Notes: generated by a model from the letters alone, not told the origin. Numbered from the stretch's first letter, positions 9,409 through 57,039 are shown. The stretch is 64,000 nucleotides of DNA from an uncultured Methanosarcinales archaeon (GCA_964609455.1 CAZSRD010000001.1:70920-134919); one strand, 5' to 3'. A program made the numbers and translations.

Positions 9409-10731
<1,323 letters not shown>

Positions 10732-17961: not shown

Positions 17962-18987
17962 ATGGTGGTAGATAAATCATATAAGATAGCCACGATTGGC
18001 TCTCATTCTGCGTTACAGATACTTAAAGGAGCGAAAGACGAAGGTTTTGAGACAATTTGTATTTGTCTAAAAGGTAGAGAAAAGCCTTACCAGCAGTTTA
18101 AGGTTGCTGATAAGATAATTTCTATAAAGGATTTCAGTGAGTTTGAGAAAGTACAAGATGAGCTGCTTAAAGATAATGCTATCATAATACCCCATGCTTC
18201 ATTCATTTCTTATATGGGGCTTGAGAGGGTAGAGAAATTAAAGGTTCCTTATTTCGGGAATAAGGAAATATTAAAATGGGAGTCAGACAGGAACTGGGAA
18301 AGGAAGTGGCTTACGAAAGCAGGGCTTAAGATGCCTAAGATTTTCAAGAAACCGGAAGATATTGACAGGCCTGTAATACTCAAGTTCCATGGCGCAGATG
18401 GAGGCAAAGGCTATTTTTTAGCCAAGAATTATAATGATTTCAAGAGAAAGATAAAATTACACCCTAACAGCAAGAAATATGTCATTCAGGAATATATTCT
18501 AGGAGTTCCTATGTATGCTCATTATTTCCATTCTCCTTTAACAGGGGAAACAGAGTTGATGGGTTTTGACAAAAGATATGAGAGTAATGTTGACAGCCTA
18601 GGAAGGATTTCTGCCAGGGACCAGATGGCATTGCCTAAAGAACAAGTTGATCCTAGCTATGTTATTGTTGGTAACATGCCTGTTGTAGTTAGAGAATCTT
18701 ACTTACCAGGTTATATAAGCAAAGGAGAGAAAACAGTAAAAGAAAGCAAAAAGTTAGTTAAAGGTGGGTTGTTCGGGCCTTTCTGCCTAGAAACAATAAT
18801 AACTCCTGACGGAGAGATTATCACCTTTGAGATTTCAGCAAGGATTGTTGCTGGCACAAACCCTTATGTTCATGGCTCACCATATACCTGGCTGAGGTAT
18901 AATGAGCCTATGTCAACTGGAAGGAGGATTGCTCGTGAAATAAAGTTGGCTATTGAGCAAAATAAATTAAACAAGGTGTTGAGTTAA
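17962..18987 (+). CDS. purP: PurP-type 5-formaminoimidazole-4-carboxamide ribonucleotide (FAICAR) synthetase, formate-dependent ATP-grasp
   Basis: IATIGSHSALQILKGAKDEGFETICICLKGREKPY is the characteristic archaeal PurP N-terminus. 341 aa. Confidence 0.7.
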   Translation: MVVDKSYKIATIGSHSALQILKGAKDEGFETICICLKGREKPYQQFKVADKIISIKDFSEFEKVQDELLKDNAIIIPHASFISYMGLERVEKLKVPYFGNKEILKWESDRNWERKWLTKAGLKMPKIFKKPEDIDRPVILKFHGADGGKGYFLAKNYNDFKRKIKLHPNSKKYVIQEYILGVPMYAHYFHSPLTGETELMGFDKRYESNVDSLGRISARDQMALPKEQVDPSYVIVGNMPVVVRESYLPGYISKGEKTVKESKKLVKGGLFGPFCLETIITPDGEIITFEISARIVAGTNPYVHGSPYTWLRYNEPMSTGRRIAREIKLAIEQNKLNKVLS

Positions 18988-18988
18988 A

Positions 18989-20299
18989 ATGGCTAAAAAG
19001 AGGGTTATTAAAAAAGTTCATAGATCAAAAACCAGGAAACATAAAGGCATGTTTGATAAGTTCTTTAAGGGCGTTAAGATTGAGGTAAACAAGGTAAGCA
19101 GCGAAGTAAAGGAGAAAGAAGAGGATGTTTTCGGAAAGCTTGGCGAGATAAAAGAAAAAGTTCTTAGAGTTGGCGGATCAACAAATATTTCTAAAATATT
19201 AGAAAGTTATGACAAAACTAACATTACAATAGGCGTTTTAGGTGGCCATAGCGCTTTGGATGTTTGCAGGGGGGCTAAGAAATTAGGTTTCAGAACAGTA
19301 GCTGTATGTAAAAAGGGGCGTGAACAGACTTATGCTAAGTATTACAAAACAAGAGAGGATGGAAGAGGCATTATTGACGAGATTATCTTAGTTGATAAGT
19401 TTGATGATATTGCCAAAAAAGATGTGCAGGATAAATTAAGAGAGCTAAATACTATTTTTATACATAACAGGTATTTCTGGGTTTATTGTGATTTCAAAAA
19501 GATTGAGAAACAGTTTAAGGTGCCTATTTTTGGTACCCGAACCATGCTTAAATTAGAAGAAAGGGATGTTCCTAAGAACCAGTATTATTTACTTGAAAGA
19601 GCAGGTATAAGAATGCCTAAGATTTATTCTGATGCTAAGAAGATTGACAGGTTAGTGATTGTAAAGGTTGCAGAGGCTGCAAGAGGCTATGAAAGGGCAT
19701 TCTTTTTTTGCAACAATTATGAAAGCTATAAGCAGAAATCTGATGATATGTTAAAGAAGAAGATAATAACTCCAGTTGCCTTAAAAAAAGCTGTTATTGA
19801 AGAGTATATTGTTGGTGCCCAAGTTAATTTTAATTATTTCTATAGTCCTTTGACTGAAGAGCTTGAATTGATGGGGACTGACACAAGGAGACAGACTAAT
19901 CTAGATGGGTTGTTAAGGTTACCTGCTGATGTTCAGCTGGAAGTATTGAAGTATATCCAACCTAAATTAGTAGAGACAGGGCATATTGCAGTCACAACAA
20001 AAGAAAGTATTTTAGAAAAAATATTTTTAATTGGCGAGAAGTTTGTTGAAACTTGTAAAAAAGAGCATCCGCCTGGGATAATTGGACCATTTGCATTGCA
20101 AGGAGCTGTTGCTGCTGAGGAAGGCAAAGAGGAATTGGTTATATTTGATGTTTCAATGAGAATTCCCGGAAGTCCTGGGACAATTTCAACGCCATATTCT
20201 GGTTACTTGCATCATGATTCTATATCTTATGGTGAAAGGATTGCTATGGAGATAAAAAAGGCAATTGAAGAAGATAAATTAGATTGGATTTGTACTTAA
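18989..20299 (+). CDS. Second PurP-family paralog with a ~75-aa basic N-terminal extension
   Basis: ITIGVLGGHSALDVCRGAKKLGFRTVAVCKKGREQTY parallels the upstream PurP. 436 aa. Confidence 0.6.
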   Translation: MAKKRVIKKVHRSKTRKHKGMFDKFFKGVKIEVNKVSSEVKEKEEDVFGKLGEIKEKVLRVGGSTNISKILESYDKTNITIGVLGGHSALDVCRGAKKLGFRTVAVCKKGREQTYAKYYKTREDGRGIIDEIILVDKFDDIAKKDVQDKLRELNTIFIHNRYFWVYCDFKKIEKQFKVPIFGTRTMLKLEERDVPKNQYYLLERAGIRMPKIYSDAKKIDRLVIVKVAEAARGYERAFFFCNNYESYKQKSDDMLKKKIITPVALKKAVIEEYIVGAQVNFNYFYSPLTEELELMGTDTRRQTNLDGLLRLPADVQLEVLKYIQPKLVETGHIAVTTKESILEKIFLIGEKFVETCKKEHPPGIIGPFALQGAVAAEEGKEELVIFDVSMRIPGSPGTISTPYSGYLHHDSISYGERIAMEIKKAIEEDKLDWICT

Positions 20300-20312
20300 T
20301 TTTTATTAGGGG

Positions 20313-21263
20313 GTGTTATCAATGGATGTACAAAAATTCATACAAGACAAGGTTAAAGAAATAAAAGAGAAAGTAGGAAGTGATACAGCAGTTAATGCTT
20401 TATCAGGTGGTGTAGACAGTTCTGTTGTTGCTATACTTGCGCATAAGGCTCTTGGTGATAAGGTTAAGAATATTTTTCTAAACGATGGTTTAATGCGCTT
20501 AAATGAGCCTGAGACAATTAAATCAAGCTTTGCTAAGATTGGAATTGATGTAGAAGTAAAAGATGTTGCAGATAAATTCTTCTCAGCTTTAAAAGGGCTA
20601 GAAGATGGTGAAGAGAAAAGAAAAGCTTTTAGAGATACTTTCTACAAGGTTTTAGGTGAAGCTGTTAAGGAATCAGGTGGAAAGGTTTTATTGCAAGGAA
20701 CTATAAAGCCAGATATTGAAGAAACTAAAGCTGGAGTTAAAACACAGCATAATATTTTATCTCAAATAGGGATTGATCCTGAAAAAGAGTATGGATATAG
20801 AATTGCTGAGCCTCTTATTGATTTAGTAAAATGGGAAGTAAGAGAAGTGGGAAAAGCTTTGGGATTGCCACAAACAAGGTTTAATACTATGCCTTTCTTA
20901 GGGCCTGGGCTTTCTGGCAGGGTAATTGGTGAAGTTACTCGTGAAAGAGTTGAGATTGTAAGAAAAGCCAACAATATTGTTGAAGAGGAGCTAATGCCAT
21001 TAAAGCCATTCCAGTGCTTGGCTGTTTTGCTTAAGGACAATGCTACAATGAAAGGCGATGAGAATGCTAAAGGTAGGAATTACGGAAATATAATTGCAGT
21101 TAGGTGCGTTGAAAGCACAGATGCCAGAACTGTTGAGGTAACGGAAGTTCCTTATGATATTCTAAAAAGAATTGTCAAGAGAATAACAACAGAAGTTCCT
21201 GGTGTGATAAAGGTTGTGTATGACGTTACGCCAAAGCCGCCAAGTACGATTGAGTATATTTAA
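20313..21263 (+). CDS. guaA: GMP synthase subunit B (ATP pyrophosphatase domain of the split archaeal GuaA)
   Basis: SGGVDSSVVA PP-loop and a C-terminal dimerisation region. 316 aa. The glutamine amidotransferase subunit is not in the window. Confidence 0.8.
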   Translation: MLSMDVQKFIQDKVKEIKEKVGSDTAVNALSGGVDSSVVAILAHKALGDKVKNIFLNDGLMRLNEPETIKSSFAKIGIDVEVKDVADKFFSALKGLEDGEEKRKAFRDTFYKVLGEAVKESGGKVLLQGTIKPDIEETKAGVKTQHNILSQIGIDPEKEYGYRIAEPLIDLVKWEVREVGKALGLPQTRFNTMPFLGPGLSGRVIGEVTRERVEIVRKANNIVEEELMPLKPFQCLAVLLKDNATMKGDENAKGRNYGNIIAVRCVESTDARTVEVTEVPYDILKRIVKRITTEVPGVIKVVYDVTPKPPSTIEYI

Positions 21264-22804
21264 CACCCACTGCAACTTTCGTAGCTTCTTTTCCCTTTCT
21301 TTCCTGATTTGAAGTCTTTTAATGCTTTACAATAAGTTGTTCTTCCGCATGGTGTTGGATATTTGCCTGTTAAGCAAGCAAGGCATAAATCGTTCTTTGG
21401 CAAGCCTATGCTCTTTATTAAGCCAGGAATTGTTTGATAGATTAAGGAATCTGCGCCCATATCTTTTGCTATCTTTGCGCATGTTTTTTCTGATATCTTT
21501 TCCGGGTCTATTGGCCTTTCATAATGAGGCAATAATAATTCACCAATAGTGGACATATCTATTCCATAGAAACATGGCGCTTTGATTGGCGGACATGTAA
21601 CTCTAACATGAACTTCTTCTGCTCCGCCGATCTCTTTTAGGAATTTAACGATCTGCTTTGATGTTGTTCCCCTTACAATGCTGTCATCAACCAGCAAAAC
21701 TTTCTTTCCTTTTAAGATTTCTTTTATAACGGTATACTTATTTCCTACCTTGTCTTCTCTTTTGCTTCCTTCAATAAAAGTTCTTCCTACAAACCTGTTT
21801 CTAATCAATCCTTCCATTGAAGGTATTCCTAGCTCGTAAGCGTAGGCATCGCCTGCTGCTTTTGCAGTATCTGGTACAGGCACAACAATGTGGTCAGATG
21901 TCATTGTTTCTGTCTCCAGCTTTGCTAATTCCTTGCCTAGGTTTGTTCTTGTGATATAAACAGATTTTCCGTCTAAAACAGAGCTTACGTTTGCAAAGTA
22001 TACCCATTCAAACATGCAGTATGCTTTCCTTGGTGATTTTGCAAACCTTTCTATCTTTATGTTTCCGTTTTCTGATGTTATCAGCTTTCCAGGCTCTAAG
22101 GGCTTAAAATCGTGCAGGCCAATATTTGTTAAGGCATTGCTTTCAGAAGCCACAAACAGGTTTCCGCCTTTAATTGAATAGCACATTGGCCTAAATCCTA
22201 AAGGATCCCTGCAAACAGTTAAATCACCATAACCATTTATGAAAGCTATGTTATAAGCTCCATCAAAATTTTTGCTTATGGATGAGAAAATATTTTTTAA
22301 AAGCGGTTTTTTGTATCCTTTAAGGTCCCTTGCCAGGTAATGCATTATTATTTCCGTATCATTATTAAGGACGAAATGATATTCTGTTTTTTCAACCAAG
22401 GGTTTTTTTAATTTTTCAAAATTGACCAAGTTTCCATTGAAGCAGAAGCTGAACCATTTCCACATCCTTCCGTGCTTTCTTTCAAATGGCTGCGCATATG
22501 TTTTATCGTTTGCTCCGCATGTTGCATAACGAACATGACCTATGCCCTTATTGCCTGCGTATTTTCTGAATAATTCCATGCTTCTTTGTACATTGCTTGT
22601 CCTGAAAACCTCATTTACTGTCCCTATATTCCTATAAGTATTGATTAACTGCGGCCTTTCTTTATTGTAGGTTGTTATGCCGGCTGATAATTGGCCTCTG
22701 TTTTGAAGGCTAAGAAGCATCCTATAAAGATAGAACAGAGCTTTATGGTCTTTTTTAAGAGAGACTGCAGCTACGCCGCATTCGTCTTTTATTTCACCAC
22801 TCAT
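21260..22804 (-). CDS. purF: Amidophosphoribosyltransferase (glutamine PRPP amidotransferase)
   Basis: Propeptide MSGEIKDE then the Cys nucleophile (CGVAAV). NRGQLSAG, a PRTase motif, and a Cys-rich C-terminus. The track ORF's extra 34 N-terminal codons were rejected. Confidence 0.85.
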   Translation of the reverse strand: MSGEIKDECGVAAVSLKKDHKALFYLYRMLLSLQNRGQLSAGITTYNKERPQLINTYRNIGTVNEVFRTSNVQRSMELFRKYAGNKGIGHVRYATCGANDKTYAQPFERKHGRMWKWFSFCFNGNLVNFEKLKKPLVEKTEYHFVLNNDTEIIMHYLARDLKGYKKPLLKNIFSSISKNFDGAYNIAFINGYGDLTVCRDPLGFRPMCYSIKGGNLFVASESNALTNIGLHDFKPLEPGKLITSENGNIKIERFAKSPRKAYCMFEWVYFANVSSVLDGKSVYITRTNLGKELAKLETETMTSDHIVVPVPDTAKAAGDAYAYELGIPSMEGLIRNRFVGRTFIEGSKREDKVGNKYTVIKEILKGKKVLLVDDSIVRGTTSKQIVKFLKEIGGAEEVHVRVTCPPIKAPCFYGIDMSTIGELLLPHYERPIDPEKISEKTCAKIAKDMGADSLIYQTIPGLIKSIGLPKNDLCLACLTGKYPTPCGRTTYCKALKDFKSGKKGKRSYESCSGC

Positions 22805-22957
22805 ATTATATATAATTAATATGAGGTTTATAAACTTTATGATTGAGCGTAGCGAAAGCATAAAGTATTGGGACAATAGGTTTTGTTTGGGATATTTATT
22901 TTCCACTTCAATAAAACTTAAATATAAGGTATCCTAATTTCTTGTAGGGGTGATTAA

Positions 22958-24379
22958 ATGAGCGGTATTTTTGGTGTTGTGAGCAATAATAACTGTATTT
23001 CTAGCTTGTACTATGGGGTGGATTACCACAGCCATTTAGGGACTGAATACGGAGGAATCGCTTTTATTAATAAGGATGGTAAACCAGTAAGAAAAATACA
23101 TGATATTTCCAATTCTCAGTTCAAGTCAAAATTTTACGAAGGCTCTGAAGAGATTAAAACCAATCTTGGCATTGGCGTTATATCTGATAAGGACCCACAG
23201 CCATTGAGTTTTGAAAGCAAGTTCGGGCCCTTTGCATTATGCTGCGCTGGATTAATAACAAATAGAGATGAATTAGTCAAGGAGTTAATAAAAAAAGGAA
23301 TTACATTTAGTGAGATAGCGCATGGGGATATAAATGCTATTGAGGTTGTTGCAAGCCTTATAAACCAGGGAGATTCAATTATTGAGGGCATTGAAGAGAT
23401 GTATAATAAGATTAGGGGTTCAATATCTTTGCTTTTATTAACTAAAGATGGCATATATGCTGCAAGAGATAGAAACGGAGTTACTCCTTTGGTAATTGGA
23501 GAAAAGGATGGAGAAGTTGCTATTGCAAGTGAAAGCTGCAGTTTTCCAAACCTGGGGTTTAAGATTAAGAAGTTTCTTGAGCCAGGAGAGATTGTTTTTA
23601 TAAGCCAAAAAGGGATTGAAACTAAAAAAGAAGGCAATCAGGATAGCAGGATATGCGCATTCTTATGGATATATACAGGATTTCCTGCTTCAACTTATGA
23701 GGGCATAAATGTGGAGAAGGTCAGGGAAGATTGCGGCAGGTTTTTAGCAAAAAGGGATGATGTGGAGGTAGATATTATAGCTGGTGTTCCTGATTCAGGA
23801 ATAGCGCATGCTATTGGGTATGCAATGGAATCCGGCAAGCCATATAGGAGGGTATTATTGAAATATACTCCTGGCTATGGCAGAAGTTATACTCCGCCTT
23901 CACAAGAAGTCAGAGATAGGGTTGCTCTTATGAAGCTAATTGCTAATGAGGCAATAATCAAAGGCAACAGGATAATACTATGTGATGATTCTATTGTTAG
24001 AGGAACTCAATTAAAGAATTTTACAATAACTAAGCTGAAGGATGCTGGTGCTAAAGAAGTTCATGCAAGGCCTGCTTGCCCTCCTTTGATGTTTCCTTGC
24101 ATCTATAATTTATCAACAAGGAGCATTAATGAGTTAGCTGCACGCAGAGCGATTAGAGCTTTAGAAGGAAAAGATATTGAAGATGTTTCTGAGTATTTGG
24201 ATCCTAATTCTTCAAAATATAAGCAGATGATTGATTGGATTGCTAAAGATTTAGGAGTAACTACATTAAGGTATATGTTAATAGATGATATGGTTGAGGC
24301 TATTGGTCTTCCTAAAGATAAGTTATGCACGTACTGCTGGACTGGGAAAGGTGTGCAGAAGAGTTTGAGTTCTTATTAG
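22958..24379 (+). CDS. PurF-like paralog (Ntn amidotransferase fold plus type I PRTase) with Ser replacing the N-terminal Cys nucleophile
   Basis: Starts MSGIFGVV instead of MCGI(V/F)G. The R-G-Q-D-S-A-G glutaminase motif is absent. The PRTase PRPP motif (RIILCDDSIVRGTQ) is conserved. Confidence 0.6.
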   Translation: MSGIFGVVSNNNCISSLYYGVDYHSHLGTEYGGIAFINKDGKPVRKIHDISNSQFKSKFYEGSEEIKTNLGIGVISDKDPQPLSFESKFGPFALCCAGLITNRDELVKELIKKGITFSEIAHGDINAIEVVASLINQGDSIIEGIEEMYNKIRGSISLLLLTKDGIYAARDRNGVTPLVIGEKDGEVAIASESCSFPNLGFKIKKFLEPGEIVFISQKGIETKKEGNQDSRICAFLWIYTGFPASTYEGINVEKVREDCGRFLAKRDDVEVDIIAGVPDSGIAHAIGYAMESGKPYRRVLLKYTPGYGRSYTPPSQEVRDRVALMKLIANEAIIKGNRIILCDDSIVRGTQLKNFTITKLKDAGAKEVHARPACPPLMFPCIYNLSTRSINELAARRAIRALEGKDIEDVSEYLDPNSSKYKQMIDWIAKDLGVTTLRYMLIDDMVEAIGLPKDKLCTYCWTGKGVQKSLSSY

Positions 24380-24435: not shown

Positions 24436-25929
24436 ATGAATGTAGATGGATTAACCAGAATATTAGACTCTGAACATGCTGGATTTGTTGATTTATTAGG
24501 CAAAGAAATAGAAATGGAGAAAGTTGAAAGAGTTTATCGTGCTTTAGCAACAGCTCCTGCCCCAACTGGAAATATTATGGAGCTTAGCGTTCTTTTGAAA
24601 AGATTGATGAAAGAAGAGTTCGGATGGGGAGGATATAATATAGATTATAGGGTAGACACAAACAGAAAAGGACAAGTTGGATTGGTGTTTGGAAATTTAG
24701 ATAATAATGAAACATTCATTTCTATTGTCCCCCATGGAGACCAAATAATGTTTAATGTTGATGAAAGAGGTAGGGGGTTCCCTGAAGGTGTTGAAGGTAA
24801 GGTTTCTGAAGGTTTTAGGTGTGTGCAGGTATTCCCTAGCCATAAAAACAAAATGAAAAGTGGACAGGTGTGGGAAGCTAGTTGTTATGTTTATGACCCA
24901 ACAAAATATACAGTTGATACTTGGAACCATCCTGGAATAAAGCTTTTGACTAAAGGGGTTGTAAGGTGTGTAGCAGACCCTGATGTTTCATTGCAGCCTC
25001 TTGTAGAAGGGGAATATGAAAAGTTATTGTCCTCTTTTTCTTTATATATAAAACCCGAACAGATGCCAAGCAGGGAAGATTATTTAGGATGGAGGATGTT
25101 ACAAAGAAATGTAAGGAATATGATGGGTAATTCACAACCGGCAGTAAAACAAGGAGAGGTTTCTCAATTTATTTTTGAATATCCCAAAAAGGTTGGAGAA
25201 ATTCCATACGATGCTGTTGTTATTTATGATAATGAAAGCTATTATAATTCCGGACACTGGCCAATAATTGAATCTGCATGTGCGGATGACAGAGCTGGTA
25301 TTTGCGCTGCTCTTTTTGCTTCTGACCTTTTGTTTAGGTACTATAAAAAAGGGGGAATTAACGTTGAGGTAGTGGATGGGGACGAAATAAATGTAGTCGG
25401 TCCAAAAATGCTGGTTAATCTTCATGCAGATGAAGAAGGACCATCAGATAGGGGGGTAAATTGGGATGATGGTGGAAACTTCGGAACTTTTGATGCAGTA
25501 GCAAGAAACAAGGTACCTGCATCACACGCCATAATCATTGACGGACACAAAGAAGCAGGAGATACAAGGTTAGGAAACGGAGCTTTCTTTTCTTATAATC
25601 CTGGTGGAGGATACGGAAGTAGGACTCCTCAAGGATTAAAAGCTTTCCTAAAGCTTATTTCGCAAATTGCCCATATTAAAAAGATTAGGTTTAATATGAA
25701 TCCTGAGTATGTAAGCAGATCAAGTGATGTGGATCTCAAACAGTATCAAGATATAATTAATGTAGGATTTCCAATTGATCATCCACATGAGATGCCTGAA
25801 AGTATACACTTAGATGATGTTGTAGATGTTGCTAGGGCAGTAGCGCTCATAAGTGTTGCACATGCAATAAAACCAATAAGGGAACAGTATTTATGCATGA
25901 GGCATGATCGTTATAGGTACCACCCTTAA
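24436..25929 (+). CDS. Hypothetical protein with possible M42/M20-like metallopeptidase-fold signatures
   Basis: The ordered PHGDQ ... ACADDRAGICAAL ... LHADEEG resembles the M42 His/Asp/Glu-Glu metal-ligand order. 497 aa is much longer than M42 enzymes, so the assignment is weak. Confidence 0.3.
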   Translation: MNVDGLTRILDSEHAGFVDLLGKEIEMEKVERVYRALATAPAPTGNIMELSVLLKRLMKEEFGWGGYNIDYRVDTNRKGQVGLVFGNLDNNETFISIVPHGDQIMFNVDERGRGFPEGVEGKVSEGFRCVQVFPSHKNKMKSGQVWEASCYVYDPTKYTVDTWNHPGIKLLTKGVVRCVADPDVSLQPLVEGEYEKLLSSFSLYIKPEQMPSREDYLGWRMLQRNVRNMMGNSQPAVKQGEVSQFIFEYPKKVGEIPYDAVVIYDNESYYNSGHWPIIESACADDRAGICAALFASDLLFRYYKKGGINVEVVDGDEINVVGPKMLVNLHADEEGPSDRGVNWDDGGNFGTFDAVARNKVPASHAIIIDGHKEAGDTRLGNGAFFSYNPGGGYGSRTPQGLKAFLKLISQIAHIKKIRFNMNPEYVSRSSDVDLKQYQDIINVGFPIDHPHEMPESIHLDDVVDVARAVALISVAHAIKPIREQYLCMRHDRYRYHP

Positions 25930-26891
25930 GATAAATCAGCTTTCTTGAGTTTTCTGAAAAGATTATCCACTAATCCAATACCTTTTTTTGTCTTAAGATC
26001 CAATCCTATGCTGCATTCTCTTAGGAAATGGGCTTCTGCTCTCTGAGCAATCTCTTTTGATCTTATGTAGATCCCGCCAGTTATTATATTATGCTCATCC
26101 CTTGTGTAGATGAATACATGTTGGGGATCATTATCTACGACGGGCATCATAAAATCAAAGCCAAAAGGATACTCTAAGAAATACATCTCAATCATCTTTT
26201 GTGTCTTCAATATGTTTTTCAGGTTTTTTATAGTAAGCTCTACTTCATGGATCGCTGCTTTTTTGTCTTTTAATTTATTGAATGCGTGTTTGTAAGGCAC
26301 ATAAATATTGAATTGGGTTAAATATATTATCTTAAGCTTTTTCTGGACAAAACCGCGCTCAATCAACGTATCAACATAACCCTGTCTTGAAGAAGAGTTG
26401 CTTATTATGCCTGTAAAAGAGATGTTTGCAAAAGGAGAGACGATATAGATCTTATCCGAATTCTTAAGTATCTTATTTGCCTCATTGAAGAATTCTCTTG
26501 ATGTATTAAGGTATCTGACAAGAGGTGCTTCATCCTTTTCCCCTAAGTGCTTGAATACTTGCTCTATCTTTGATGATGCTTTCTTAAATTCATCAAGATT
26601 ATTTGAAAGATTACCTTCTGTTTTCTTTAGCCTTGATTTTATTCCTTCAATATCCAATACATAGTTTGCTTTGGAGACCTTTTGGATAAGATCCTCCTGC
26701 ACCAATCTTTTGATCTGTCTAAAAAGATTTGGCTTGTTTATTGTATGCTTGAAAAGAGAATTATACCTTTCATCGATATTTGCTGCCGAAGCTTTTATCC
26801 CTTCATTGTTTAGCATATTGATTATAGTCAGTATCTGGTATTGCTGCTCAGTTATATCCAGCCATTCCTTAAGCTGCTTTAGCTCTTCCAT
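25926..26891 (-). CDS. Winged-HTH transcriptional regulator, TrmB-like (N-terminal wHTH plus a C-terminal effector-like domain)
   Basis: The N-terminal ~70 aa have the wHTH pattern (ITEQQYQILTIINMLNNEGIKASAANIDE). 321 aa. Confidence 0.35.
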   Translation of the reverse strand: MEELKQLKEWLDITEQQYQILTIINMLNNEGIKASAANIDERYNSLFKHTINKPNLFRQIKRLVQEDLIQKVSKANYVLDIEGIKSRLKKTEGNLSNNLDEFKKASSKIEQVFKHLGEKDEAPLVRYLNTSREFFNEANKILKNSDKIYIVSPFANISFTGIISNSSSRQGYVDTLIERGFVQKKLKIIYLTQFNIYVPYKHAFNKLKDKKAAIHEVELTIKNLKNILKTQKMIEMYFLEYPFGFDFMMPVVDNDPQHVFIYTRDEHNIITGGIYIRSKEIAQRAEAHFLRECSIGLDLKTKKGIGLVDNLFRKLKKADLS

Positions 26892-26992
26892 AACCTTTGC
26901 AGTTTAAATATAGTATTTATATCTTTCGATTTTTAGGTGTAAGTATATCATTACATATACACTAATATACAATATTTATTTATATACTACGG

Positions 26993-27499
26993 ATGATTTA
27001 TATAAAATATAAAACGATTCCGAGGGAAACAACTATGATGCAGAAAAAAGATTTGTTAATTTTGTCAAATTTGCGAAAAGACGCAAGAATGTCTTTAACG
27101 AATATGAGCAAAGCAACACACATACCTATATCAACTATATTTGACAGGCTGAGGATGCATGAAGTGGGTTTGATAAAGAAACATACCAGCCTTATTGATT
27201 TTGAGAAATTGGGCTTTAACACAAGGGCTAATGTATGCATTAAGGTGGATAAGAGTAAAAGAGAAGAATTGAGAGAGCATTTATCAAAGCACCAGAATGT
27301 TAATTCTGTGTTTAAGATAAACAATGGCTATGACTTTCTTGCAGAGGTTGTTTTTCACAATATAAAAGATTTAGAGGAGTTTATGGAGAACCTTGAAGAG
27401 AGGTTTAATGTAACACAGACGCAGGTTTATTATCTGATAGAAGACATTAAAAGAGAGGAGTTTATGGCTGATCCTTTGTTAATGGATTTAATTAACTGA
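26993..27499 (+). CDS. Lrp/AsnC-family transcriptional regulator
   Basis: The HTH LLILSNLRKDARMSLTNMSKATHIPISTIFDRL and a C-terminal RAM domain. The true start is likely at MMQKK. Confidence 0.7.
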   Translation: MIYIKYKTIPRETTMMQKKDLLILSNLRKDARMSLTNMSKATHIPISTIFDRLRMHEVGLIKKHTSLIDFEKLGFNTRANVCIKVDKSKREELREHLSKHQNVNSVFKINNGYDFLAEVVFHNIKDLEEFMENLEERFNVTQTQVYYLIEDIKREEFMADPLLMDLIN

Positions 27500-27576
27500 A
27501 TATCTTTCTATTATATCAGAAAACTTTCAGGTTTTCTTAGGTAAGCCATTTAAATAAAATATGTTCTAATTGATTT

Positions 27577-28014
27577 ATGCTTACAGAAAAAGAGCTGTTG
27601 ATATTGTCTCATTTGAGGGAAAACTCGAGGAAGACGATAACAGATATAGCAAAAGAAACAGGAATACCAAAATCTACGGTTTTTGATAATATAAATAAAT
27701 TAAAAACAAAAGTGATTAAAAAGAATGTTTCATTGCTTGATTTTTCAAAGGTAGGGTATGGATTAAGGGTGAACTTCGCTATAAAAGCAAAAAATAAAAA
27801 AGAAGCCAGAGAATTCCTGGCAAACCATAAAAATGTTAACTCAGTTTATAAAACAACAAACAATTTTGACTTTTATATTGAAGCTATTTTTAAGAATATG
27901 AAGGAAATGCATGATTTCAAAGACGAACTGGATAATTTAGGCATTAAAAGAAGCGAAGAGCATTTTTTGATAGATGATATCAAAAGAGAGGGATTTATGC
28001 TTAGGAAGGAATAA
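27577..28014 (+). CDS. Lrp/AsnC-family transcriptional regulator (tandem paralog)
   Basis: ELLILSHLRENSRKTITDIAKETGIPKSTVFDNINKL plus a RAM domain. 145 aa. Confidence 0.75.
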   Translation: MLTEKELLILSHLRENSRKTITDIAKETGIPKSTVFDNINKLKTKVIKKNVSLLDFSKVGYGLRVNFAIKAKNKKEAREFLANHKNVNSVYKTTNNFDFYIEAIFKNMKEMHDFKDELDNLGIKRSEEHFLIDDIKREGFMLRKE

Positions 28015-28573
28015 CTCTCTGAAGACAAAACAAAGCTAGGTTAAGTGTTTCCATATTGCTTCTTACTGATGCTTCCCTTAATTCTGAGGGAACTAAATAA
28101 TCTTCAATTGAGATATATTCAAATCCAAACCTTCTCCTATCTCCTGGCTCTGGCAGCTCTAATGCTAAGACGGGGTAAGTGCATGGCTGGCCAAAATCAA
28201 AAGTGTCTGGCGGAAAAATTCTGTCTAAGAGGTATGGGATATCCGGATTAGGCAATATTTCTGGTTTTGATATAAGATAATCCCCATGCACTTCCAAAAG
28301 TATTTTATCGTGCTGTCGGTTCAAACCGCTTGCAAAGGATATCCTATGGTTATATTCTCGCAATGGTATTTCTCCTCCATTTTCGAGAAGGGAATTCAGC
28401 GTTAAATAAGGGGGGTATTGCGCAAAAGAAACATTCTCAGGAGAGAATATTGGCTTAAAATCAACAGAAGGTTCTCCTCTTAGGAAAGAATCAATTCGCC
28501 TGCAAGCTTCATATGCATTTCTTTCGTTTGGATGAACTCCCCAGATTACGGCAATTTTCTTTGCAGATTCCAT
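28001..28573 (-). CDS. Hypothetical protein with atypical composition (GC-rich, Pro/Arg/Leu-rich). The N-terminus weakly resembles the AstE/AspA HxxE metal motif.
   Basis: IAVIWGVHPNERNA resembles the GxHGNE start of the succinylglutamate desuccinylase/aspartoacylase family. At 190 aa it is shorter than that family. Confidence 0.3.
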   Translation of the reverse strand: MESAKKIAVIWGVHPNERNAYEACRRIDSFLRGEPSVDFKPIFSPENVSFAQYPPYLTLNSLLENGGEIPLREYNHRISFASGLNRQHDKILLEVHGDYLISKPEILPNPDIPYLLDRIFPPDTFDFGQPCTYPVLALELPEPGDRRRFGFEYISIEDYLVPSELREASVRSNMETLNLALFCLQRVIPS

Positions 28574-28855
28574 TCTGGTTAATGTTAAAAACAGCTTATT
28601 AACGATAACTGAGAAAAAAACGAAGAGTTTCTGCAGGAATCAGAATAAATTTGCTTTAGCTTAAAATATCCGAATATTTTTCACTTGTTTGTTCTGAAAA
28701 ACCTATCAAAAAAGATGGTTCATTAAAAGTTTTGATAGTGTTCCTGAAAATATTTTATCTTTTCTTATTTTTCCCGGAAACTAATGGCATATTGACGAAA
28801 AAGAGGCGGAAATTGATTGCAAAGAGATATTAAAAGAGATTTCCTCTTTTAGATT

Positions 28856-30436
28856 ATGGGAATAGGATCTGCATTTATGGATTGGAAAGGCAGGTATGAA
28901 CCAGATTTGAAAGAAATGCAAAAATATCTTGGCCATATCTTTGACGCTTACAGAAAAGCAGTCCATAGGCCAAACAGAGTAAATGATGATGAATCACTAG
29001 ACTCAAGCATGGATTCATTTGAAGTGGATATTAGAAACGGGAATATAAGCGGCCTTAGCACTTTGGATCACCTCTTAGGCATACTTGCTACTGAAACAAC
29101 CCATTTTAGTGAAGAAACATATTTCGCCCATATGCTGTCCCAATCTCCAAAATTGCTGATGCTAAGCCACATGATAGGAATAATCAATAGTGGCAATCAT
29201 GTAGCAGCTGAAGTTTCAAGGCTTAGCAACAATCTTGAAAGAAGGATAGGGAGAAAGATAGATGATATGGTCGGCTACACCACCAAATCAGCTTTGTCTT
29301 TAGTGGTATCTGGAGGCACTGAGGCAAATATGATGGCGTTGCTGGTTGCAAGGAATACAGCTTACCAGGAGTTTGATCTTCGCAAGAATGGTGGCATTGG
29401 AAATGAAAAAATTAATCAAAAACCTGCTGTAATATTGCCGGCATCAGCGCATTATTCATTGGATAAATCACAAAACTTGCTAGGCCTAGGAGAAGTAAAC
29501 CAGGTTTATGTAAGGGTTAATGACAGATGCCAAATGGATCTTGATGACCTGCAAAATAAATTAATGCAGGTCTATAAAGAAAATAGAAGAATAGTGGCTG
29601 TTGTTGGCATTGCAGGAAATACAGAAACAGGAGCGATAGATGATTTAAGAGGGATAAATAGGATAGTGAGGCAATTCGAAAGAGAGACAGGAAAAAAAGT
29701 TTGGCTGCATGCTGATGCTGCCTGGGGCGGGCCATATATTTTCATGCTAGATGAATTCAAAGAAAAATTTGGTAAAGCCCTAAAATGGTATGACTCTGTT
29801 TCTATAGACCCGCATAAAAATTTTTATACACCCTATAATGCAGGAGTAATCTCTTTTAAGAACGGCATAAATGCAAGAAGGCAATTGTCTACAGATGCCA
29901 AATATCTAAAAGGCCATATAAAGCACCCAGGGGGTGTTAAATTAATAGGCTCACAATCTACAAGCGGTATTTTTTCAACTTATATGGCGTTATTTGCTTA
30001 CCCTGAAGAGTTCTATAAAGAGGTTTTTAGAACTTGCCTAGCTAGAACCAGCTACTTTGTTGAGCAACTAAAAAAAGTTAAATTGAATTCTGGCAGGATA
30101 GAGGTTGTAGTTGAAAACCCCGAGATGAACCTGGTCAATTTCAGGTATATCCCTGCTGAATTAGACAAGCCATCTTCTTCAAAAGAAAGAGCATTGCAAA
30201 AAGGAGAAAACACCCCTTATTTAAGCAGGGTGAATAGATTAAACGAAGCAATTGGATCATACATAAACAGTGAAGGGAGATATACAATTTCTGATACTTC
30301 AGGCTTAGCTAAATCTGGTCTTTATTGCCACAGGGTTGTTTTGATGAACCCTTTAACAAAAAGAGAGAATATAGACGGGTTTGTTGAAGTTTATAAAAAA
30401 GCGATTGAACATGTTATGAGCCAAAGGAGACAATAA
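28856..30436 (+). CDS. PLP-dependent amino-acid decarboxylase (group II fold)
   Basis: S-x-D-P-H-K PLP-lysine motif (SIDPHKNF). SGGTEANMMAL and LHADAAWGG are typical of group II decarboxylases. 526 aa. Confidence 0.7.
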   Translation: MGIGSAFMDWKGRYEPDLKEMQKYLGHIFDAYRKAVHRPNRVNDDESLDSSMDSFEVDIRNGNISGLSTLDHLLGILATETTHFSEETYFAHMLSQSPKLLMLSHMIGIINSGNHVAAEVSRLSNNLERRIGRKIDDMVGYTTKSALSLVVSGGTEANMMALLVARNTAYQEFDLRKNGGIGNEKINQKPAVILPASAHYSLDKSQNLLGLGEVNQVYVRVNDRCQMDLDDLQNKLMQVYKENRRIVAVVGIAGNTETGAIDDLRGINRIVRQFERETGKKVWLHADAAWGGPYIFMLDEFKEKFGKALKWYDSVSIDPHKNFYTPYNAGVISFKNGINARRQLSTDAKYLKGHIKHPGGVKLIGSQSTSGIFSTYMALFAYPEEFYKEVFRTCLARTSYFVEQLKKVKLNSGRIEVVVENPEMNLVNFRYIPAELDKPSSSKERALQKGENTPYLSRVNRLNEAIGSYINSEGRYTISDTSGLAKSGLYCHRVVLMNPLTKRENIDGFVEVYKKAIEHVMSQRRQ

Positions 30437-30439
30437 AAT

Positions 30440-33639: not shown

Positions 33640-33644
33640 TTCTC

Positions 33645-34470: not shown

Positions 34471-35787
34471 GTGATTATCATGATATCAGTACTTTTAGTG
34501 GGGAATGGCGCTCGCGAGCATGCAATTGCAGAAGCTCTTGTCAGAAGCCCGCAGAAACCAAAGCTTTTTTCTTATATGAAATCTAATAATCCAGGTATTG
34601 CTAAATTATCTGAGCAGGTACAGATTGGCAAGTATAATGATCTAGATGAGATTGAGAATTTTGCTAAAAGCTCTAATGTAGAGTTTGCTGTCATTGGCCC
34701 TGAAGATCCATTAAGCAATGGAGTAGTTGATGCTTTGGAAGCTATAGGAATTCCTTGTGTAGGGCCTAAAAAGGAATTGGCTAGATTGGAAACATCAAAA
34801 TCATTTACAAGGTTACTTATGAAAAAATACAAGATTCCTGGAATGCCTAAGTTCAGGGTTTTTGAAAGTTTAGACGGAGTGATGGAGTTTATTGAAAAGT
34901 TAGATGGTGTTGTTGTAAAGCCAGATGGGTTAACCGGAGGAAAAGGTGTTAAGGTTCAAGGAGATCATTTTGAAACAAAGGATGAAGCTTATGCATATTG
35001 TGAAGATGTTTTGAAAAATCATAAAGCAGTTGTTGTTGAAGAGAAATTAGTTGGAGAAGAGTTCTCTTTGCAAAGCTTTACTGATGGAAAAAGCTTATTT
35101 GACTGCCCTCCTGTTCAGGACCATAAAAGGGCTTTTGTTGATGATAAAGGGCCTAATACTGGAGGAATGGGAAGCTATTCTACAGGCAAGTTATTGCCTT
35201 TTATGACTGAGCAAGATTTAAGGGAAGCACATGTAATTACTGACAAGATGAGAGAAGCTTTATTTAAAGAGTGCGGTGAGCTGTATAAAGGAGTCATGTA
35301 TGGCGGTTTTATATGCACAAAGAAAGGCGTTAAATTGATAGAGTATAATGCTCGATTAGGTGATCCTGAAGCAATGAATGTTTTGCCAATAATGAAAAAT
35401 GATTTTGTTGATGTTTGTAAAGCTATTATTGAAGGTACACTGCATAAGATAAGGCCTAATTTTTCTGAAAATGCAACTGTATGTAAATATGCTGTTCCTG
35501 AAGGCTATCCAACAAATCCTGTTGAAGGACAGAAGATATCTTTAGGTGAGGTGCCTGATAATGTAAAGGTATATTATGCTTCTGTCGACAGAAAAGATGG
35601 TGAGTTATACATGTCAAAATCAAGGGCAGTGGCTTTTGTTGGAATTGCTCCAACATTAGAACAAGCTCAGGTAATCGCAGAAGATGGTGTTTGTTCTGCA
35701 CAAGGACCAATATTCCATAGAGAAGATATTGGAACAAAAGAATTGATTGATAAAAGAATTGAACATATGGAAGAGTTGAGGGGTTAA
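34471..35787 (+). CDS. purD: Phosphoribosylamine--glycine ligase
   Basis: N-terminus VLLVGNGAREHAIAEAL, ATP-grasp core and C-terminal domain. The start is possibly at the third Met (34480). Confidence 0.9.
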   Translation: MIIMISVLLVGNGAREHAIAEALVRSPQKPKLFSYMKSNNPGIAKLSEQVQIGKYNDLDEIENFAKSSNVEFAVIGPEDPLSNGVVDALEAIGIPCVGPKKELARLETSKSFTRLLMKKYKIPGMPKFRVFESLDGVMEFIEKLDGVVVKPDGLTGGKGVKVQGDHFETKDEAYAYCEDVLKNHKAVVVEEKLVGEEFSLQSFTDGKSLFDCPPVQDHKRAFVDDKGPNTGGMGSYSTGKLLPFMTEQDLREAHVITDKMREALFKECGELYKGVMYGGFICTKKGVKLIEYNARLGDPEAMNVLPIMKNDFVDVCKAIIEGTLHKIRPNFSENATVCKYAVPEGYPTNPVEGQKISLGEVPDNVKVYYASVDRKDGELYMSKSRAVAFVGIAPTLEQAQVIAEDGVCSAQGPIFHREDIGTKELIDKRIEHMEELRG

Positions 35788-56680: not shown

Positions 56681-56755
56681 TGCCCCCAACGGGATTTGAA
56701 CCCATGTCCCAGCCTCGAAAAGGCTGAATGATTGACCGGACTACACCATGGGGGC
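56681..56755 (-). tRNA. tRNA-Glu (anticodon TTC)
   Basis: Reverse complement reads GCCCCCA-...-CAGCC-TTTTCGA-GGCTG-GGAC-ATGGG-TTCAAAT-CCCGT-TGGGGGC-A. Confidence 0.85.
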
Positions 56756-56806
56756 GTAAGTATTGAGTTTTCTAATTTTTTTATAAATCTTTGTTTTTGT
56801 AAAGAG

Positions 56807-56912
56807 TGGGCTCGCAGGGATTTGAACCCCAGACCGCCGGCTCACTTAGAGCCGTTTGCCTAGAACGTGGCCATATAAGACCGGCGCTCTAACCAGGCTG
56901 AGCTACGAGCCC
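56807..56912 (-). tRNA. Intron-containing tRNA with apparent anticodon TAT (tRNA-Ile2-like). 31-nt intron at the canonical 37/38 position (plus coordinates 56843-56873).
   Basis: Acceptor GGGCTCG/CGAGCCC and an Ile/Met-type D-arm AGCTCAGCCTGGTTAGAGC. Anticodon stem CCGGT/GCCGG with loop CTTATA|intron|A. Intron-end TAAG pairs with loop CTTA (a BHB-like arrangement). 106 nt precursor. Confidence 0.6.
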
Positions 56913-56964
56913 ATTAAGGTAAGAGAATAAGTATTTTGTTTATAAATATTTTTGTTTTGATAAA

Positions 56965-57036
56965 TGCGACGGCCGGGATTTGAACCCGGGTGAGAGCCTT
57001 GGCAAGGCCCTATCATAACCGCTAGATCACCATCGC
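56965..57036 (-). tRNA. tRNA-Gly (anticodon GCC)
   Basis: Anticodon arm GGGCC-TTGCCAA-GGCTC, T-arm CCGGG-TTCAAAT-CCCGG, acceptor GCGATGG/CCGTCGC. Confidence 0.85.
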
Positions 57037-57039
57037 AGA

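What the first reader, a model, noticed from the sequence alone, without database searches (positions are those of the whole stretch)
21260..24379. Divergent pair of PurF genes. The second paralog has Ser in place of the catalytic N-terminal Cys and lacks the glutaminase motif.
The canonical PurF (propeptide then Cys, NRGQLSAG, PRTase) is divergently paired with a 473-aa paralog. The paralog begins MSGIFGVV, has lost the R-G-Q-D-S-A-G block, and keeps an intact PRPP-binding PRTase domain. Two outcomes are possible: an ammonia-dependent PRA synthase with a glutaminase-dead Ntn domain, or an enzyme with a different acceptor chemistry.

The downstream neighbours are a 497-aa unknown (24436-25929) and a TrmB-like regulator.
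Basis: partly seen in the sequence, partly recalled or inferred. Interest (0 to 1): 0.55.

Follow-up and report, generated by a model that had tools for sequence, protein, structure and literature searches.

The report
Cysteine-less PurF twin beside PurF
Next to the normal first enzyme of purine synthesis (PurF), this archaeon encodes a second, highly conserved PurF-like protein that has lost all its glutamine-splitting parts but keeps the sugar-phosphate half; it belongs to a widespread, biochemically untested family that probably makes the same product directly from ammonia.

Summary
A canonical PurF (21260-22804, minus strand) has an 8-residue propeptide, then Cys. It lies head-to-head with a 473-aa PurF-like gene (22958-24379, plus strand) that starts MSGIFGVV. 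An in-frame TAA sits directly before that ATG, so no upstream Cys is possible.

The paralog has lost every glutamine-site element: Cys1 to Ser, Arg26 to Leu, an 8-residue deletion of the Arg73/Tyr74 loop, Asn101 to Ala, Asp127 to His. It keeps the PRPP loop, the flexible catalytic loop and all four Fe-S cysteines.

It is not a one-off duplicate. It belongs to a large clade with the motif G-x-D-Y-H-S-H-L-G-T, found in anaerobic archaea and bacteria. Residue 2 there is Ser, Gly, Thr or Ala.

In gut Firmicutes and in Omnitrophota the clade member occupies the purF slot of the pur operon, with no canonical purF in the 13-17 kb of DNA examined. In the window's closest relatives it is followed directly by purD.

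Best reading (about 0.65): a glutamine-independent, ammonia-using phosphoribosylamine synthase. Cys-less PurF paralogs were described in 2011 (PurF', Mlab_0150) and never assayed, so this is a new member of a known kind.

The proposed link to the 497-aa downstream gene is refuted (1 of 80 loci).

The parts
21260..22804 (-). Canonical glutamine-dependent PurF of the B. subtilis Fe-S type. It has an 8-residue propeptide (MSGEIKDE) followed by Cys9.
   Evidence: TIGR01134 scores 345 bits over the full-length model. Cys, R-G-Q, GHVRYAT, N-G and four Fe-S Cys are all present. The start at 22804 is supported by relatives that align from residue 1.
22805..22957 (.). 153-bp divergent intergenic region. 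By eye it contains A/T-rich TATA-like boxes for each gene (TTTATAAA at about 22827-22834; TTAAATATAA at about 22918-22927) and a GGTGA before the paralog's ATG.
   Evidence: Sequence read. No Rfam family is found here. Sigma-70-type hits are no more frequent than in shuffled sequence. The promoter assignment is by eye only.
22958..24379 (+). Cys-less PurF-like protein (473 aa) of the 'DYHSHLGT' clade. Proposed to be a glutamine-independent PRA synthase.
22961..22963 (+). Ser2 codon, at the position of the catalytic Cys1. An in-frame TAA at 22955-22957 precedes the ATG.
   Evidence: Among the 80 genome loci at 63% identity or more, residue 2 is Ser in 75, Thr in 2 and Asn in 1; the start was not located in 2. 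More distant clade members have Gly, Ala or Thr.
23021..23044 (+). Clade motif D22-Y23-H24-S25-H26-L27-G28-T29, which replaces the canonical x-x-L-Q-H-R-G-Q.
   Evidence: D22 is conserved at 90%, Y23 at 100% and H26 at 92% across 39 clade representatives (50%-identity cluster representatives plus the window protein). The motif is invariant in alignment A1.
23171..23188 (+). G72-I-G-V-I-S77. This is the site of the 8-residue deletion that removes the glutamine loop (E. coli Arg73-Ser80).
   Evidence: Alignment with E. coli PurF. The same gap occurs in all clade members.
23861..23914 (+). Flexible catalytic loop of the PRTase domain: K302-Y-T-P-G-Y-G-R309-S-Y-T-P-P-S-Q316-E-V-R319.
   Evidence: It aligns with E. 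coli K326...R332...Q339. K302, R309, Q316 and R319 are conserved at 90-100% in the clade. pLDDT is low here, as expected for a mobile loop.
23978..24010 (+). PRPP-binding loop L341-C-D-D-S-I-V-R-G-T-Q351. The final Gln replaces the canonical Thr and is clade-specific.
23654..24337 (+). Span containing the four [4Fe-4S] ligand cysteines: C233 (23654-23656), C381 (24098-24100), C457 (24326-24328) and C460 (24335-24337).
   Evidence: They align with B. subtilis C236, C382, C437 and C440. They are conserved at 90-100% in the clade.
34471..35787 (+). purD (GAR synthetase). It is the immediate downstream neighbour of the paralog in the closest relatives and lies 10 kb away here.
   Evidence: 82% identical to the L001 PurD. 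Pfam GARS_N/A/C domains are found on the L001 ortholog. Synteny is shown.
17962..21263 (+). purP1, purP2 and the guaA C-terminal subunit, which make up the rest of the local purine cluster.
   Evidence: Pfam DUF1246/DUF1297 (the PurP family) and GMP_synt_C. TIGR00884.

Best explanation
The paralog is a member of a widespread clade of PurF-type enzymes that has given up glutamine hydrolysis. It most likely still performs the PurF reaction on the PRTase side: PRPP plus NH3 gives 5-phosphoribosylamine (PRA) plus PPi. It would take free ammonia rather than ammonia released from glutamine.

**Shown here**
- All residues that define the glutamine site are gone.
- The PRPP loop, the flexible catalytic loop and the Fe-S site are invariant.
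- The gene sits in the purF position of pur operons, or directly upstream of purD, the enzyme that consumes PRA.

**Inferred**
- Ammonia is the nitrogen donor.
- Deleting the glutamine loop, which in E. coli PurF carries Arg73 and the gating Tyr74, leaves the former glutamine pocket and the interdomain channel open to solvent.
- The remodelled, strongly conserved pocket helps capture or deprotonate NH4+. This pocket comprises the free N-terminal amine of a small residue exposed by Met excision, plus D22, Y23, H24 and H26.

In this archaeon the paralog would work alongside the glutamine-dependent PurF. It would save the ATP cost of glutamine synthesis when ammonia is plentiful, as in anoxic sediments and guts.
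For: **Lost and retained residues**
- Ser2 aligns with Cys1. R26 becomes L, the Gln loop carries an 8-residue deletion, N101 becomes A and D127 becomes H.
- The PRPP loop, K302, R309, Q316, R319 and four Fe-S Cys are 90-100% conserved across 39 clade representatives (50%-identity cluster representatives plus the window protein).

**Operon position**
- Gut Firmicutes contigs L090 and L091 read purE-purC-[X]-purM-purN-purO-purH-purD-purL, with no canonical purF in the operon.
- Omnitrophota L040 and L050 read purB-purL-purQ-[X]-purM-purD-purE.
- Muribaculaceae contigs read purL-[X].
- In the closest relatives L001, L002 and L036 the order is [X]-purD.
- In L010 and L013 purT immediately precedes [X]; in L016 and L017 one ORF separates them.
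- A pur gene is an immediate neighbour in 10 of 80 genome loci, against about 1 expected (p about 1e-7).

**Nucleophile and conservation**
- Gly-2 variants occupy the purF operon slot just as Ser-2 variants do, so no side-chain nucleophile is needed.
- E. coli PurF with Cys1 changed to Ser or Ala loses glutamine-dependent activity but keeps ammonia-dependent activity (Mei and Zalkin 1989, as cited in PMC3261824).
- X is much better conserved than canonical PurF between the same genome pairs: 75-80% against 32-37%. This indicates a core function.

**Habitat and fold**
- The organism labels and sample sources point to anoxic, ammonia-rich habitats (sediment Thermoplasmatota, Omnitrophota, Syntrophorhabdus, Syntrophus, gut Oscillospiraceae and Muribaculaceae). 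That these hosts are anaerobes is general knowledge, not something tested here.
- The best structural matches of the AlphaFold model are PurF crystal structures (E 1e-39).
Against: - No biochemical data exist for any clade member; four literature searches found none.
- In several genomes X and a canonical purF share one operon or are adjacent (this window; L075; Dysosmobacter). That is not what simple alternative isozymes under different nitrogen regimes would predict, and it hints at non-redundant roles.
- The N-terminal domain is under purifying selection as strong as the catalytic domain, with clade-specific invariant residues. A plain ammonia-entry role does not obviously require this.
- I could not test whether genomes with X truly lack a canonical PurF elsewhere. 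Only +/-7-10 kb was visible.
- 66 of 80 loci show no pur neighbours.
- The protein scores 227 bits against a 350-bit cut-off for TIGR01134.
- The model's global TM-score to PurF is only 0.46, so the interdomain geometry, and hence a channel, is unverified.
Confidence: 0.65

Rival explanations
1. Different chemistry on the PRTase side. X uses PRPP, or binds another ribose-5-phosphate intermediate, with a nucleophile or partner other than free ammonia. Examples would be a nitrogen donor bound in the rebuilt N-domain pocket, or ammonia delivered by a separate glutaminase such as PurQ. Alternatively it makes a product other than PRA that still feeds purine or thiamine synthesis.
For: - Clade-specific invariant residues (D22, Y23, F55, N126, G144, Q351) mark a remodelled, not decayed, N-domain and a changed PRPP-loop residue.
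- X and canonical purF coexist in one operon in Dysosmobacter and L075, which suggests non-redundancy.
- purQ lies directly upstream of X in L040 and L050.
- The TIGR01134 score is below the cut-off.
Against: - X sits alone in the purF slot of otherwise complete pur operons.
- X is adjacent to purD in the closest relatives.
- The flexible loop that encloses the small nucleophile in PurF is conserved nearly residue for residue. This argues against a bulky acceptor.
- No conserved non-pur partner gene was found; the best neighbour cluster occurs in 9 of 80 loci.
Confidence: 0.13
2. Regulatory or structural pseudo-enzyme. X forms hetero-oligomers with canonical PurF, which is a dimer or tetramer, or with PurD. 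It would tune feedback inhibition or hand over the unstable PRA without itself making PRA.
For: - Head-to-head pairing with purF occurs in this window and in L002, L006 and L036, with purF nearby in six further loci.
- X and purF share an operon in Dysosmobacter.
- The glutaminase site is lost.
- Conservation is very high, as expected for a protein with several interaction surfaces.
Against: - The catalytic PRPP-site residues and the Fe-S ligands are invariant.
- In L040, L050, L090 and L091 no canonical purF is present in the operon or within 7-8 kb.
- Most loci have no purF nearby.
Confidence: 0.1
3. Ser-type Ntn amidohydrolase. After Met removal, Ser2 acts as the N-terminal nucleophile, as in penicillin acylase. 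The enzyme would still draw ammonia from an amide donor other than glutamine, bound by the new pocket.
For: - Ser (75) or Thr (2) is at position 2 in 77 of 80 loci of the subclade at 63% identity or more.
- The protein almost always starts exactly M-x-G with no propeptide.
- The N-terminal 30 residues are the most conserved block.
Against: - Gly, Ala, Asn or Asp occupy position 2 in many clade members, including those in the purF slot of gut Firmicutes operons.
- The oxyanion-hole Asn is not conserved; it is A, D, V or S.
- E. coli Cys1-to-Ser PurF has no glutaminase activity (cited in PMC3261824).
Confidence: 0.07

Closest known systems
Glutamine PRPP amidotransferase PurF, B. subtilis Fe-S type (PDB 1GPH, 1AO0; TIGR01134; EC 2.4.2.14)
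   Same: - Two-domain architecture: an Ntn-fold domain plus a type I PRTase domain.
- Four [4Fe-4S] cysteines, the PRPP loop and the flexible loop.
- Membership of pur operons.
- HMMER E 1e-60 over residues 3-395; Foldseek E 1e-39.
   Different: - Cys1, Arg26, the Arg73/Tyr74/Thr76 loop, Asn101 and Asp127 are all replaced or deleted.
- There is no propeptide.
- Clade-specific D22-Y23 and Q351 are present.
- The score is 227 bits, below the 350-bit family cut-off.
PurF' of Crenarchaeota (Brown et al. 2011, Biol Direct 6:63, PMC3261824)
   Same: - A PurF-like paralog lacking the N-terminal Cys.
- Located near purF and other pur genes.
- Forms a cluster distinct from true PurF.
- Proposed, but never tested, to be an ammonia-dependent PRPP aminotransferase.
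   Different: - PurF' is described with Ala or Val at the Cys position and only in Crenarchaeota.
- The clade here has Ser, Gly or Thr, a DYHSHLGT motif, and spans Thermoplasmatota and many bacterial phyla.
- Whether the two are one clade could not be tested, because no PurF' sequence was available to me.
Mlab_0150 of Methanocorpusculum labreanum (same paper)
   Same: A second PurF-like gene in a euryarchaeon, with Ser in place of the catalytic Cys.
   Different: - The paper describes it as a recent duplicate most similar to the organism's own PurF.
- The window paralog is only 30% identical to its neighbouring PurF and belongs to an old, separate clade.
- A representative with Ser1 and otherwise canonical residues (P0262) does exist and clusters with canonical PurFs, not with this clade.
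E. coli PurF Cys1-to-Ser/Ala mutants (Mei and Zalkin 1989, as cited in PMC3261824)
   Same: They lose glutamine-dependent activity and keep ammonia-dependent PRA synthesis. They are the laboratory analogue of what this clade seems to have done in nature.
   Different: - They are point mutants with an otherwise intact glutamine site and channel.
- The natural clade has remodelled the whole pocket and deleted the glutamine loop.
Ammonia-dependent counterparts of amidotransferases (AsnA versus AsnB; single-domain NH3-dependent NadE; PMC3376133 for NadE)
   Same: The same logic applies: a glutamine-independent version of a nitrogen-transfer step, found where ammonia is abundant.
   Different: - Those enzymes lack the glutaminase domain altogether or are unrelated folds.
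- Here the glutaminase-fold domain is kept and strongly conserved.

Membership tests
Canonical glutamine-dependent PurF (TIGR01134, EC 2.4.2.14) | N-terminal Cys nucleophile, exposed by Met or propeptide removal | tested here: not met
   Ser2 aligns with Cys1. An in-frame stop precedes the ATG.
Canonical glutamine-dependent PurF (TIGR01134, EC 2.4.2.14) | Glutamine-binding and oxyanion residues: Arg26, Arg73, Tyr74, Thr76, Asn101-Gly102, Asp127 (E. coli numbering) | tested here: not met
   R26 becomes L. R73 to S80 are deleted. N101 becomes A, with G102 kept. D127 becomes H.
Canonical glutamine-dependent PurF (TIGR01134, EC 2.4.2.14) | Type I PRTase PRPP loop and flexible catalytic loop | tested here: met
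   The DDSIVRGT motif and K302, R309, Q316 and R319 are conserved.
Canonical glutamine-dependent PurF (TIGR01134, EC 2.4.2.14) | Four Cys ligands of the [4Fe-4S] cluster (B. subtilis-type subfamily) | tested here: met
   C233, C381, C457 and C460 align with B. subtilis C236, C382, C437 and C440.
Canonical glutamine-dependent PurF (TIGR01134, EC 2.4.2.14) | Score at or above the curated equivalog cut-off of 350 bits | tested here: not met
   227.5 bits. The neighbouring canonical PurF scores 344.9 bits.
Canonical glutamine-dependent PurF (TIGR01134, EC 2.4.2.14) | Catalyses PRA formation | not testable with these tools
   Only context supports it: the purF slot in operons and adjacency to purD.
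Cys-less PurF paralogs (PurF' sensu Brown et al. 2011) | PurF homolog lacking the N-terminal Cys | tested here: met
Cys-less PurF paralogs (PurF' sensu Brown et al. 2011) | Clusters with purF and other purine genes | tested here: met
   In the window it is divergent from purF and close to purP, guaA and purA. The same holds in relatives.
Cys-less PurF paralogs (PurF' sensu Brown et al. 2011) | Same phylogenetic cluster as the crenarchaeal PurF' sequences | not tested
   No crenarchaeal PurF' sequence could be obtained. Look-ups of cluster names were uninformative.
Ser/Thr N-terminal-nucleophile hydrolases | N-terminal Ser or Thr nucleophile conserved across the family, with an intact oxyanion hole | tested here: not met
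   Ser or Thr is present in the window's subclade. Gly, Ala or Asp occur in other clade members in the same operon slot, and the oxyanion Asn is variable.

The most novel reading that the evidence does not exclude
The clade is not simply a PurF with a dead domain. Instead it would be the principal PRA synthase of many strict anaerobes. Its former glutaminase pocket would have been rebuilt into a new functional site: the free alpha-amine of a small N-terminal residue together with the invariant Asp22, Tyr23, His24 and His26. That site would either capture and deprotonate NH4+ for a still-functional interdomain channel, or bind a so far unknown nitrogen donor or partner protein. If so, the first committed step of purine synthesis in much of the anaerobic world, including abundant gut Firmicutes and Bacteroidota, would run on a chemistry different from the textbook glutamine route.
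Probability: 0.25. Interest if true: 0.7.

Novelty: new member of a known kind. Interest (0 to 1): 0.45.

Why it matters
PurF is the committed and regulated step of purine synthesis, and textbooks present it as glutamine-dependent.

The evidence here indicates that a large, well conserved family lacks any glutaminase machinery yet takes the purF place in pur operons. Databases annotate it routinely as 'amidophosphoribosyltransferase'. It occurs in sediment archaea, Omnitrophota, taxa labelled Syntrophus and Syntrophorhabdus, and abundant human-gut bacteria.

If it is ammonia-dependent, three things follow:
- Nitrogen and energy budgets of these anaerobes would need revision, with one ATP saved per purine at this step.
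- Metabolic models that couple purine synthesis to glutamine would be wrong for these organisms.
- PurF-targeted inhibitors that attack the catalytic Cys would not touch these enzymes.

The question was raised in 2011 and is directly testable with a simple coupled assay. For this window specifically, the result is an ordinary member of that family.

Tried and rejected
- **Upstream start with Cys:** rejected. An in-frame TAA lies directly before the ATG, and further stops lie upstream.
- **Co-occurrence with the 497-aa gene (24436-25929):** rejected. A homolog lies nearby in only 1 of 80 loci (L006, 38% identity). The gene itself has no Pfam, NCBIfam or PDB match.
- **A conserved non-pur partner gene:** none found. 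The best neighbour cluster occurs in 9 of 80 loci.
- **Riboswitch or other RNA element in the divergent region:** Rfam finds only tRNAs in the window. Promoter and terminator consensus hits are at chance level.
- **Literature on a biochemical characterisation:** five searches found only Brown et al. 2011. The Fibro-purF riboswitch paper was read and is not relevant.
- **Naming more distant Cys-less clades through cluster look-ups:** mostly unnamed. This showed only that the 'FYQQHLGEE' clade is from Patescibacteria. One member (P0174, which itself reads FYATHLGSK) was looked up and is not in a pur context.
- **Structure prediction:** mean pLDDT 77.5, pTM 0.75. It confirms PurF as the nearest fold, but the global TM-score is 0.46 and I had no access to coordinates. 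Pocket and channel geometry could therefore not be analysed.
- **Whole-genome check for absence of canonical purF in genomes carrying X:** not possible.

Full report
**1. What is in the sequence**

The window is a low-GC (about 36%) archaeal segment. It carries a small purine cluster:
- purA at 9409-10725
- an HTH_10 regulator
- two tandem purP genes and the GMP synthase C-terminal subunit at 17962-21263
- the gene pair of the finding.

*The canonical PurF.* The minus-strand ORF is a PurF. Relatives align from the ATG at 22804 rather than the mechanical GTG at 22906. The protein therefore starts MSGEIKDE-Cys9-GVAAV. It has LQNRGQLSAG, GHVRYAT, FNGN and four Fe-S cysteines. It scores 345 bits over the full TIGR01134 model.

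*The paralog.* The plus-strand ORF 22958-24379 encodes 473 aa beginning MSGIFGVV. The codon before its ATG is TAA, and more in-frame stops lie upstream. A start further upstream with a Cys is excluded. The two proteins share 30% identity.

**2. What has been lost and what kept**

HMMER aligns residues 3-395 with mature B. subtilis PurF (1GPH, E 1e-60), putting Ser2 on Cys1. An alignment that includes E. coli PurF and a 95-sequence alignment show the following.

| Element (E. coli numbering) | State in the paralog |
|---|---|
| Arg26 | Leu |
| Arg73-Ser80 (glutamine loop, with Arg73, Tyr74, Thr76) | removed by an 8-residue deletion |
| Asn101 | Ala (Gly102 kept) |
| Asp127 | His |
| PRPP loop | kept (LCDDSIVRGTQ) |
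| Flexible loop | kept (K302, R309, Q316, R319) |
| Four Fe-S cysteines | kept |

The AlphaFold2 model has pLDDT 77.5 and pTM 0.75. Its low-confidence regions include the flexible loop (303-314). It finds PurF structures as best matches (E 1e-39). The global TM-score is only 0.46, so the interdomain orientation remains uncertain.

**3. It is a member of a large, old clade, not a local duplicate**

*Close homologs.* The best 120 homologs are 76-85% identical. All begin MSG[ILV]FG and carry YYGTDYHSHLGTEYGG.

*Genome distribution.* A scan of species-representative genomes found 324 relatives. The 80 best were examined. Those labelled Thermoplasmatota or other archaea are mostly 72-82% identical. 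Those from Omnitrophota, Syntrophorhabdus, Syntrophus, Elusimicrobiota and Planctomycetota are 63-68% identical.

*Diversity.* A search of 50%-identity cluster representatives shows a much more diverse clade with the motif G-x-D-Y-H-S-H-L-G-T. The residue after Met is Ser, Gly, Thr or Ala. Gly-2 variants are abundant in human-gut Oscillospiraceae and Muribaculaceae, and one cluster has 3295 members.

*Separation from other PurF-like groups.* Average-linkage clustering on pairwise identity places this clade apart from three other groups:
- canonical PurFs
- a Cys-containing short-loop group
- a Patescibacteria group with the motif FYQQHLGEE.

*Conservation within the clade.* The N-terminal 30 residues are the best conserved 30-residue block apart from the short C-terminal segment that carries two of the Fe-S cysteines (0.62 against a protein-wide mean of about 0.5). 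D22, Y23, F55, N126, G144 and Q351 are clade-specific near-invariants. The N-domain is remodelled and selected, not decaying.

*Comparison with canonical PurF.* Between the same pairs of genomes the paralog is 75-80% identical, while the canonical purF nearby is only 32-37% identical.

**4. Genomic context**

No non-pur neighbour is conserved. The best neighbour cluster occurs in 9 of 80 loci. The 497-aa downstream gene has a nearby homolog in only one locus.

Purine genes are strongly enriched. A pur gene is the immediate neighbour in 10 of 80 loci, against about one expected (p about 1e-7).

The arrangements are informative:

| Source | Gene order |
|---|---|
| Omnitrophota L040, L050 | purB-purL-purQ-[X]-purM-purD-purE |
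| Gut Firmicutes L090, L091 | purE-purC-[X]-purM-purN-purO-purH-purD-purL |
| Dysosmobacter | purE-[X]-purC-purF-purM... |
| Planctomycetota L075 | purF-purM-[X] |
| Muribaculaceae | purL-[X] |

In the gut Firmicutes contigs X sits exactly in the classical purF slot, with no canonical purF in the operon.

In the window's closest relatives (L001, L002, L036) purD follows X directly. In the window a block of about 10 kb (24436-34442) separates them. That block holds the 497-aa gene, a putative HTH protein, two small ORFs that by eye look Lrp/AsnC-like (not run through Pfam), a PLP decarboxylase and a PheRS subunit.

**5. Mechanism**

*Shown.*
- The glutamine site is abolished.
- The PRPP site is intact.
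- X occupies the purF slot or sits upstream of purD, the consumer of the short-lived PRA.
- Ser-2 and Gly-2 variants occupy the purF slot alike, so no nucleophilic side chain is required.

*From established knowledge.* E. coli PurF with Cys1 changed to Ser or Ala keeps ammonia-dependent PRA synthesis (Mei and Zalkin 1989, cited in PMC3261824). From my own knowledge of the E. coli structures, the glutamine loop with Tyr74 closes the pocket and gates the ammonia channel.

*Inferred.* X makes PRA from PRPP and free ammonia. Loss of the loop would open the pocket and channel to solvent.

Nearly all members start M-(S/G/T/A)-G with no propeptide. This would expose a free alpha-amine after Met excision. 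Together with D22, Y23, H24 and H26 it may capture or deprotonate NH4+.

The hosts appear to be organisms of ammonia-rich, anoxic habitats, judging from their labels and sample sources. Bypassing glutamine there would save ATP. I put this reading at about 0.65.

*Rivals.*
- A different donor or product, or a trans-acting glutaminase (0.13).
- A regulatory or channeling partner of PurF or PurD (0.10).
- A Ser-Ntn hydrolase using another amide (0.07).

Their main support is the coexistence of X and purF in single operons and the strong, specific conservation of the N-domain. Their main problem is the solitary occupation of the purF slot and the invariant catalytic residues.

**6. Relation to what is known**

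Brown et al. 2011 (PMC3261824) described two related cases:
- Crenarchaeal PurF' lacks the Cys, has Ala or Val at that position, and clusters with purF and pur genes.
- Mlab_0150 has Ser in place of Cys.

They proposed an ammonia-dependent enzyme 'that will require experimental testing'. I found no later characterisation. No solved structure outside canonical PurFs appears among the matches.

The window protein fails the defining tests for canonical glutamine-dependent PurF but fits the Cys-less PurF paralog category. Whether its clade equals the crenarchaeal PurF' could not be tested.

Databases already name these proteins 'amidophosphoribosyltransferase'.

**7. Verdict**

This is a new member of a known, uncharacterised kind. 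Interest is moderate (0.45). It is not surprising to a purine specialist as a phenomenon. The family is, however, far more widespread and more central than the literature suggests, and the open question is easily testable.

Noticed in passing
window 24436-34442: A block of about 10 kb separates the paralog from purD (34471-35787). It holds the 497-aa orphan, a putative HTH protein, two small ORFs that by eye look Lrp/AsnC-like (not run through Pfam), a 190-aa orphan, a PLP decarboxylase and a PheRS subunit. In the closest relatives (L001, L002, L036) purD follows the paralog directly, so this looks like an insertion or rearrangement in this lineage.
   Followed up: partly
window 24436-25929: The 497-aa ORF has no Pfam, NCBIfam or PDB sequence match. 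By eye it carries 'DDRAG' and 'HADEEG' strings reminiscent of M42/M20 metallopeptidase motifs, but this was not verified. A 38%-identical homolog lies 1.5 kb downstream of the paralog in L006 only.
   Followed up: partly
window 17962-20299: Two tandem purP paralogs (341 and 436 aa, 36% identical). The second has a Lys/Glu-rich N-terminal extension of about 80 residues. The same tandem occurs in L001 and L002. Brown et al. 2011 also noted that duplicate purP genes in archaea are unexplained.
   Followed up: no
window 20313-21263 and 21260-22804: The GMP synthase C-terminal (ATP-pyrophosphatase) subunit gene ends 4 bp inside the 3' end of the convergent purF gene. No glutaminase subunit (guaA-N) is adjacent.
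   Followed up: no
proteins P0161, P0185, P0198, P0202, P0208, P0244, P0252, P0268: A further PurF-like group keeps Cys1 and H-R-G-Q but shares the short (deleted) glutamine loop, and the oxyanion Asn is often replaced. It looks intermediate between canonical PurF and the Cys-less clade. Its function is unknown.
   Followed up: no
L088 4091-5398 (Patescibacteria, protein P0174) and proteins P0193, P0205, P0206, P0216, P0230, P0246, P0247: A separate Cys-less PurF-like clade has Ala, Val or Ser at position 2 and the motif FYQQHLGEE. Two of its members carry Patescibacteria labels (relatives of P0216 and P0221). P0174, a nearby Patescibacteria protein with Gly at position 2 and FYATHLGSK, was the one locus inspected; it has no purine genes nearby (HSP70, Dus, CorA). 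These organisms usually lack de novo purine synthesis, so this clade may do something else.
   Followed up: partly
L010 1-1785 and L017 1-2103: The canonical Cys-PurF genes next to purQ-purL in these archaeal loci appear as long ORFs (595-701 aa in my own ORF calls, which run to the locus edge). They are only 36-37% identical to the window's PurF, so the lineage carries non-orthologous canonical PurFs while the Cys-less paralog stays 78-79% identical.
   Followed up: partly
model m375198e01c63 (window 22958-24379): The AlphaFold2 model (pTM 0.75) matches PurF crystal structures with E 1e-39 but a global TM-score of only 0.46 and rmsd of about 12 A. This implies a predicted interdomain orientation different from the crystal structures. 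It is unclear whether this is real or an artefact of modelling the monomer.
   Followed up: no
window 56681-57112: A cluster of four tRNA genes on the minus strand. One match spans 106 nt (56807-56912), which suggests an intron-containing tRNA.
   Followed up: no
L089 7001-8386 (protein P0125): A Gly-2 clade member sits immediately downstream of archaeal DNA polymerase D (both subunits) and Cdc6/Orc1 on an archaeal contig, with no pur genes nearby. Context is therefore not uniformly purine-related.
   Followed up: no
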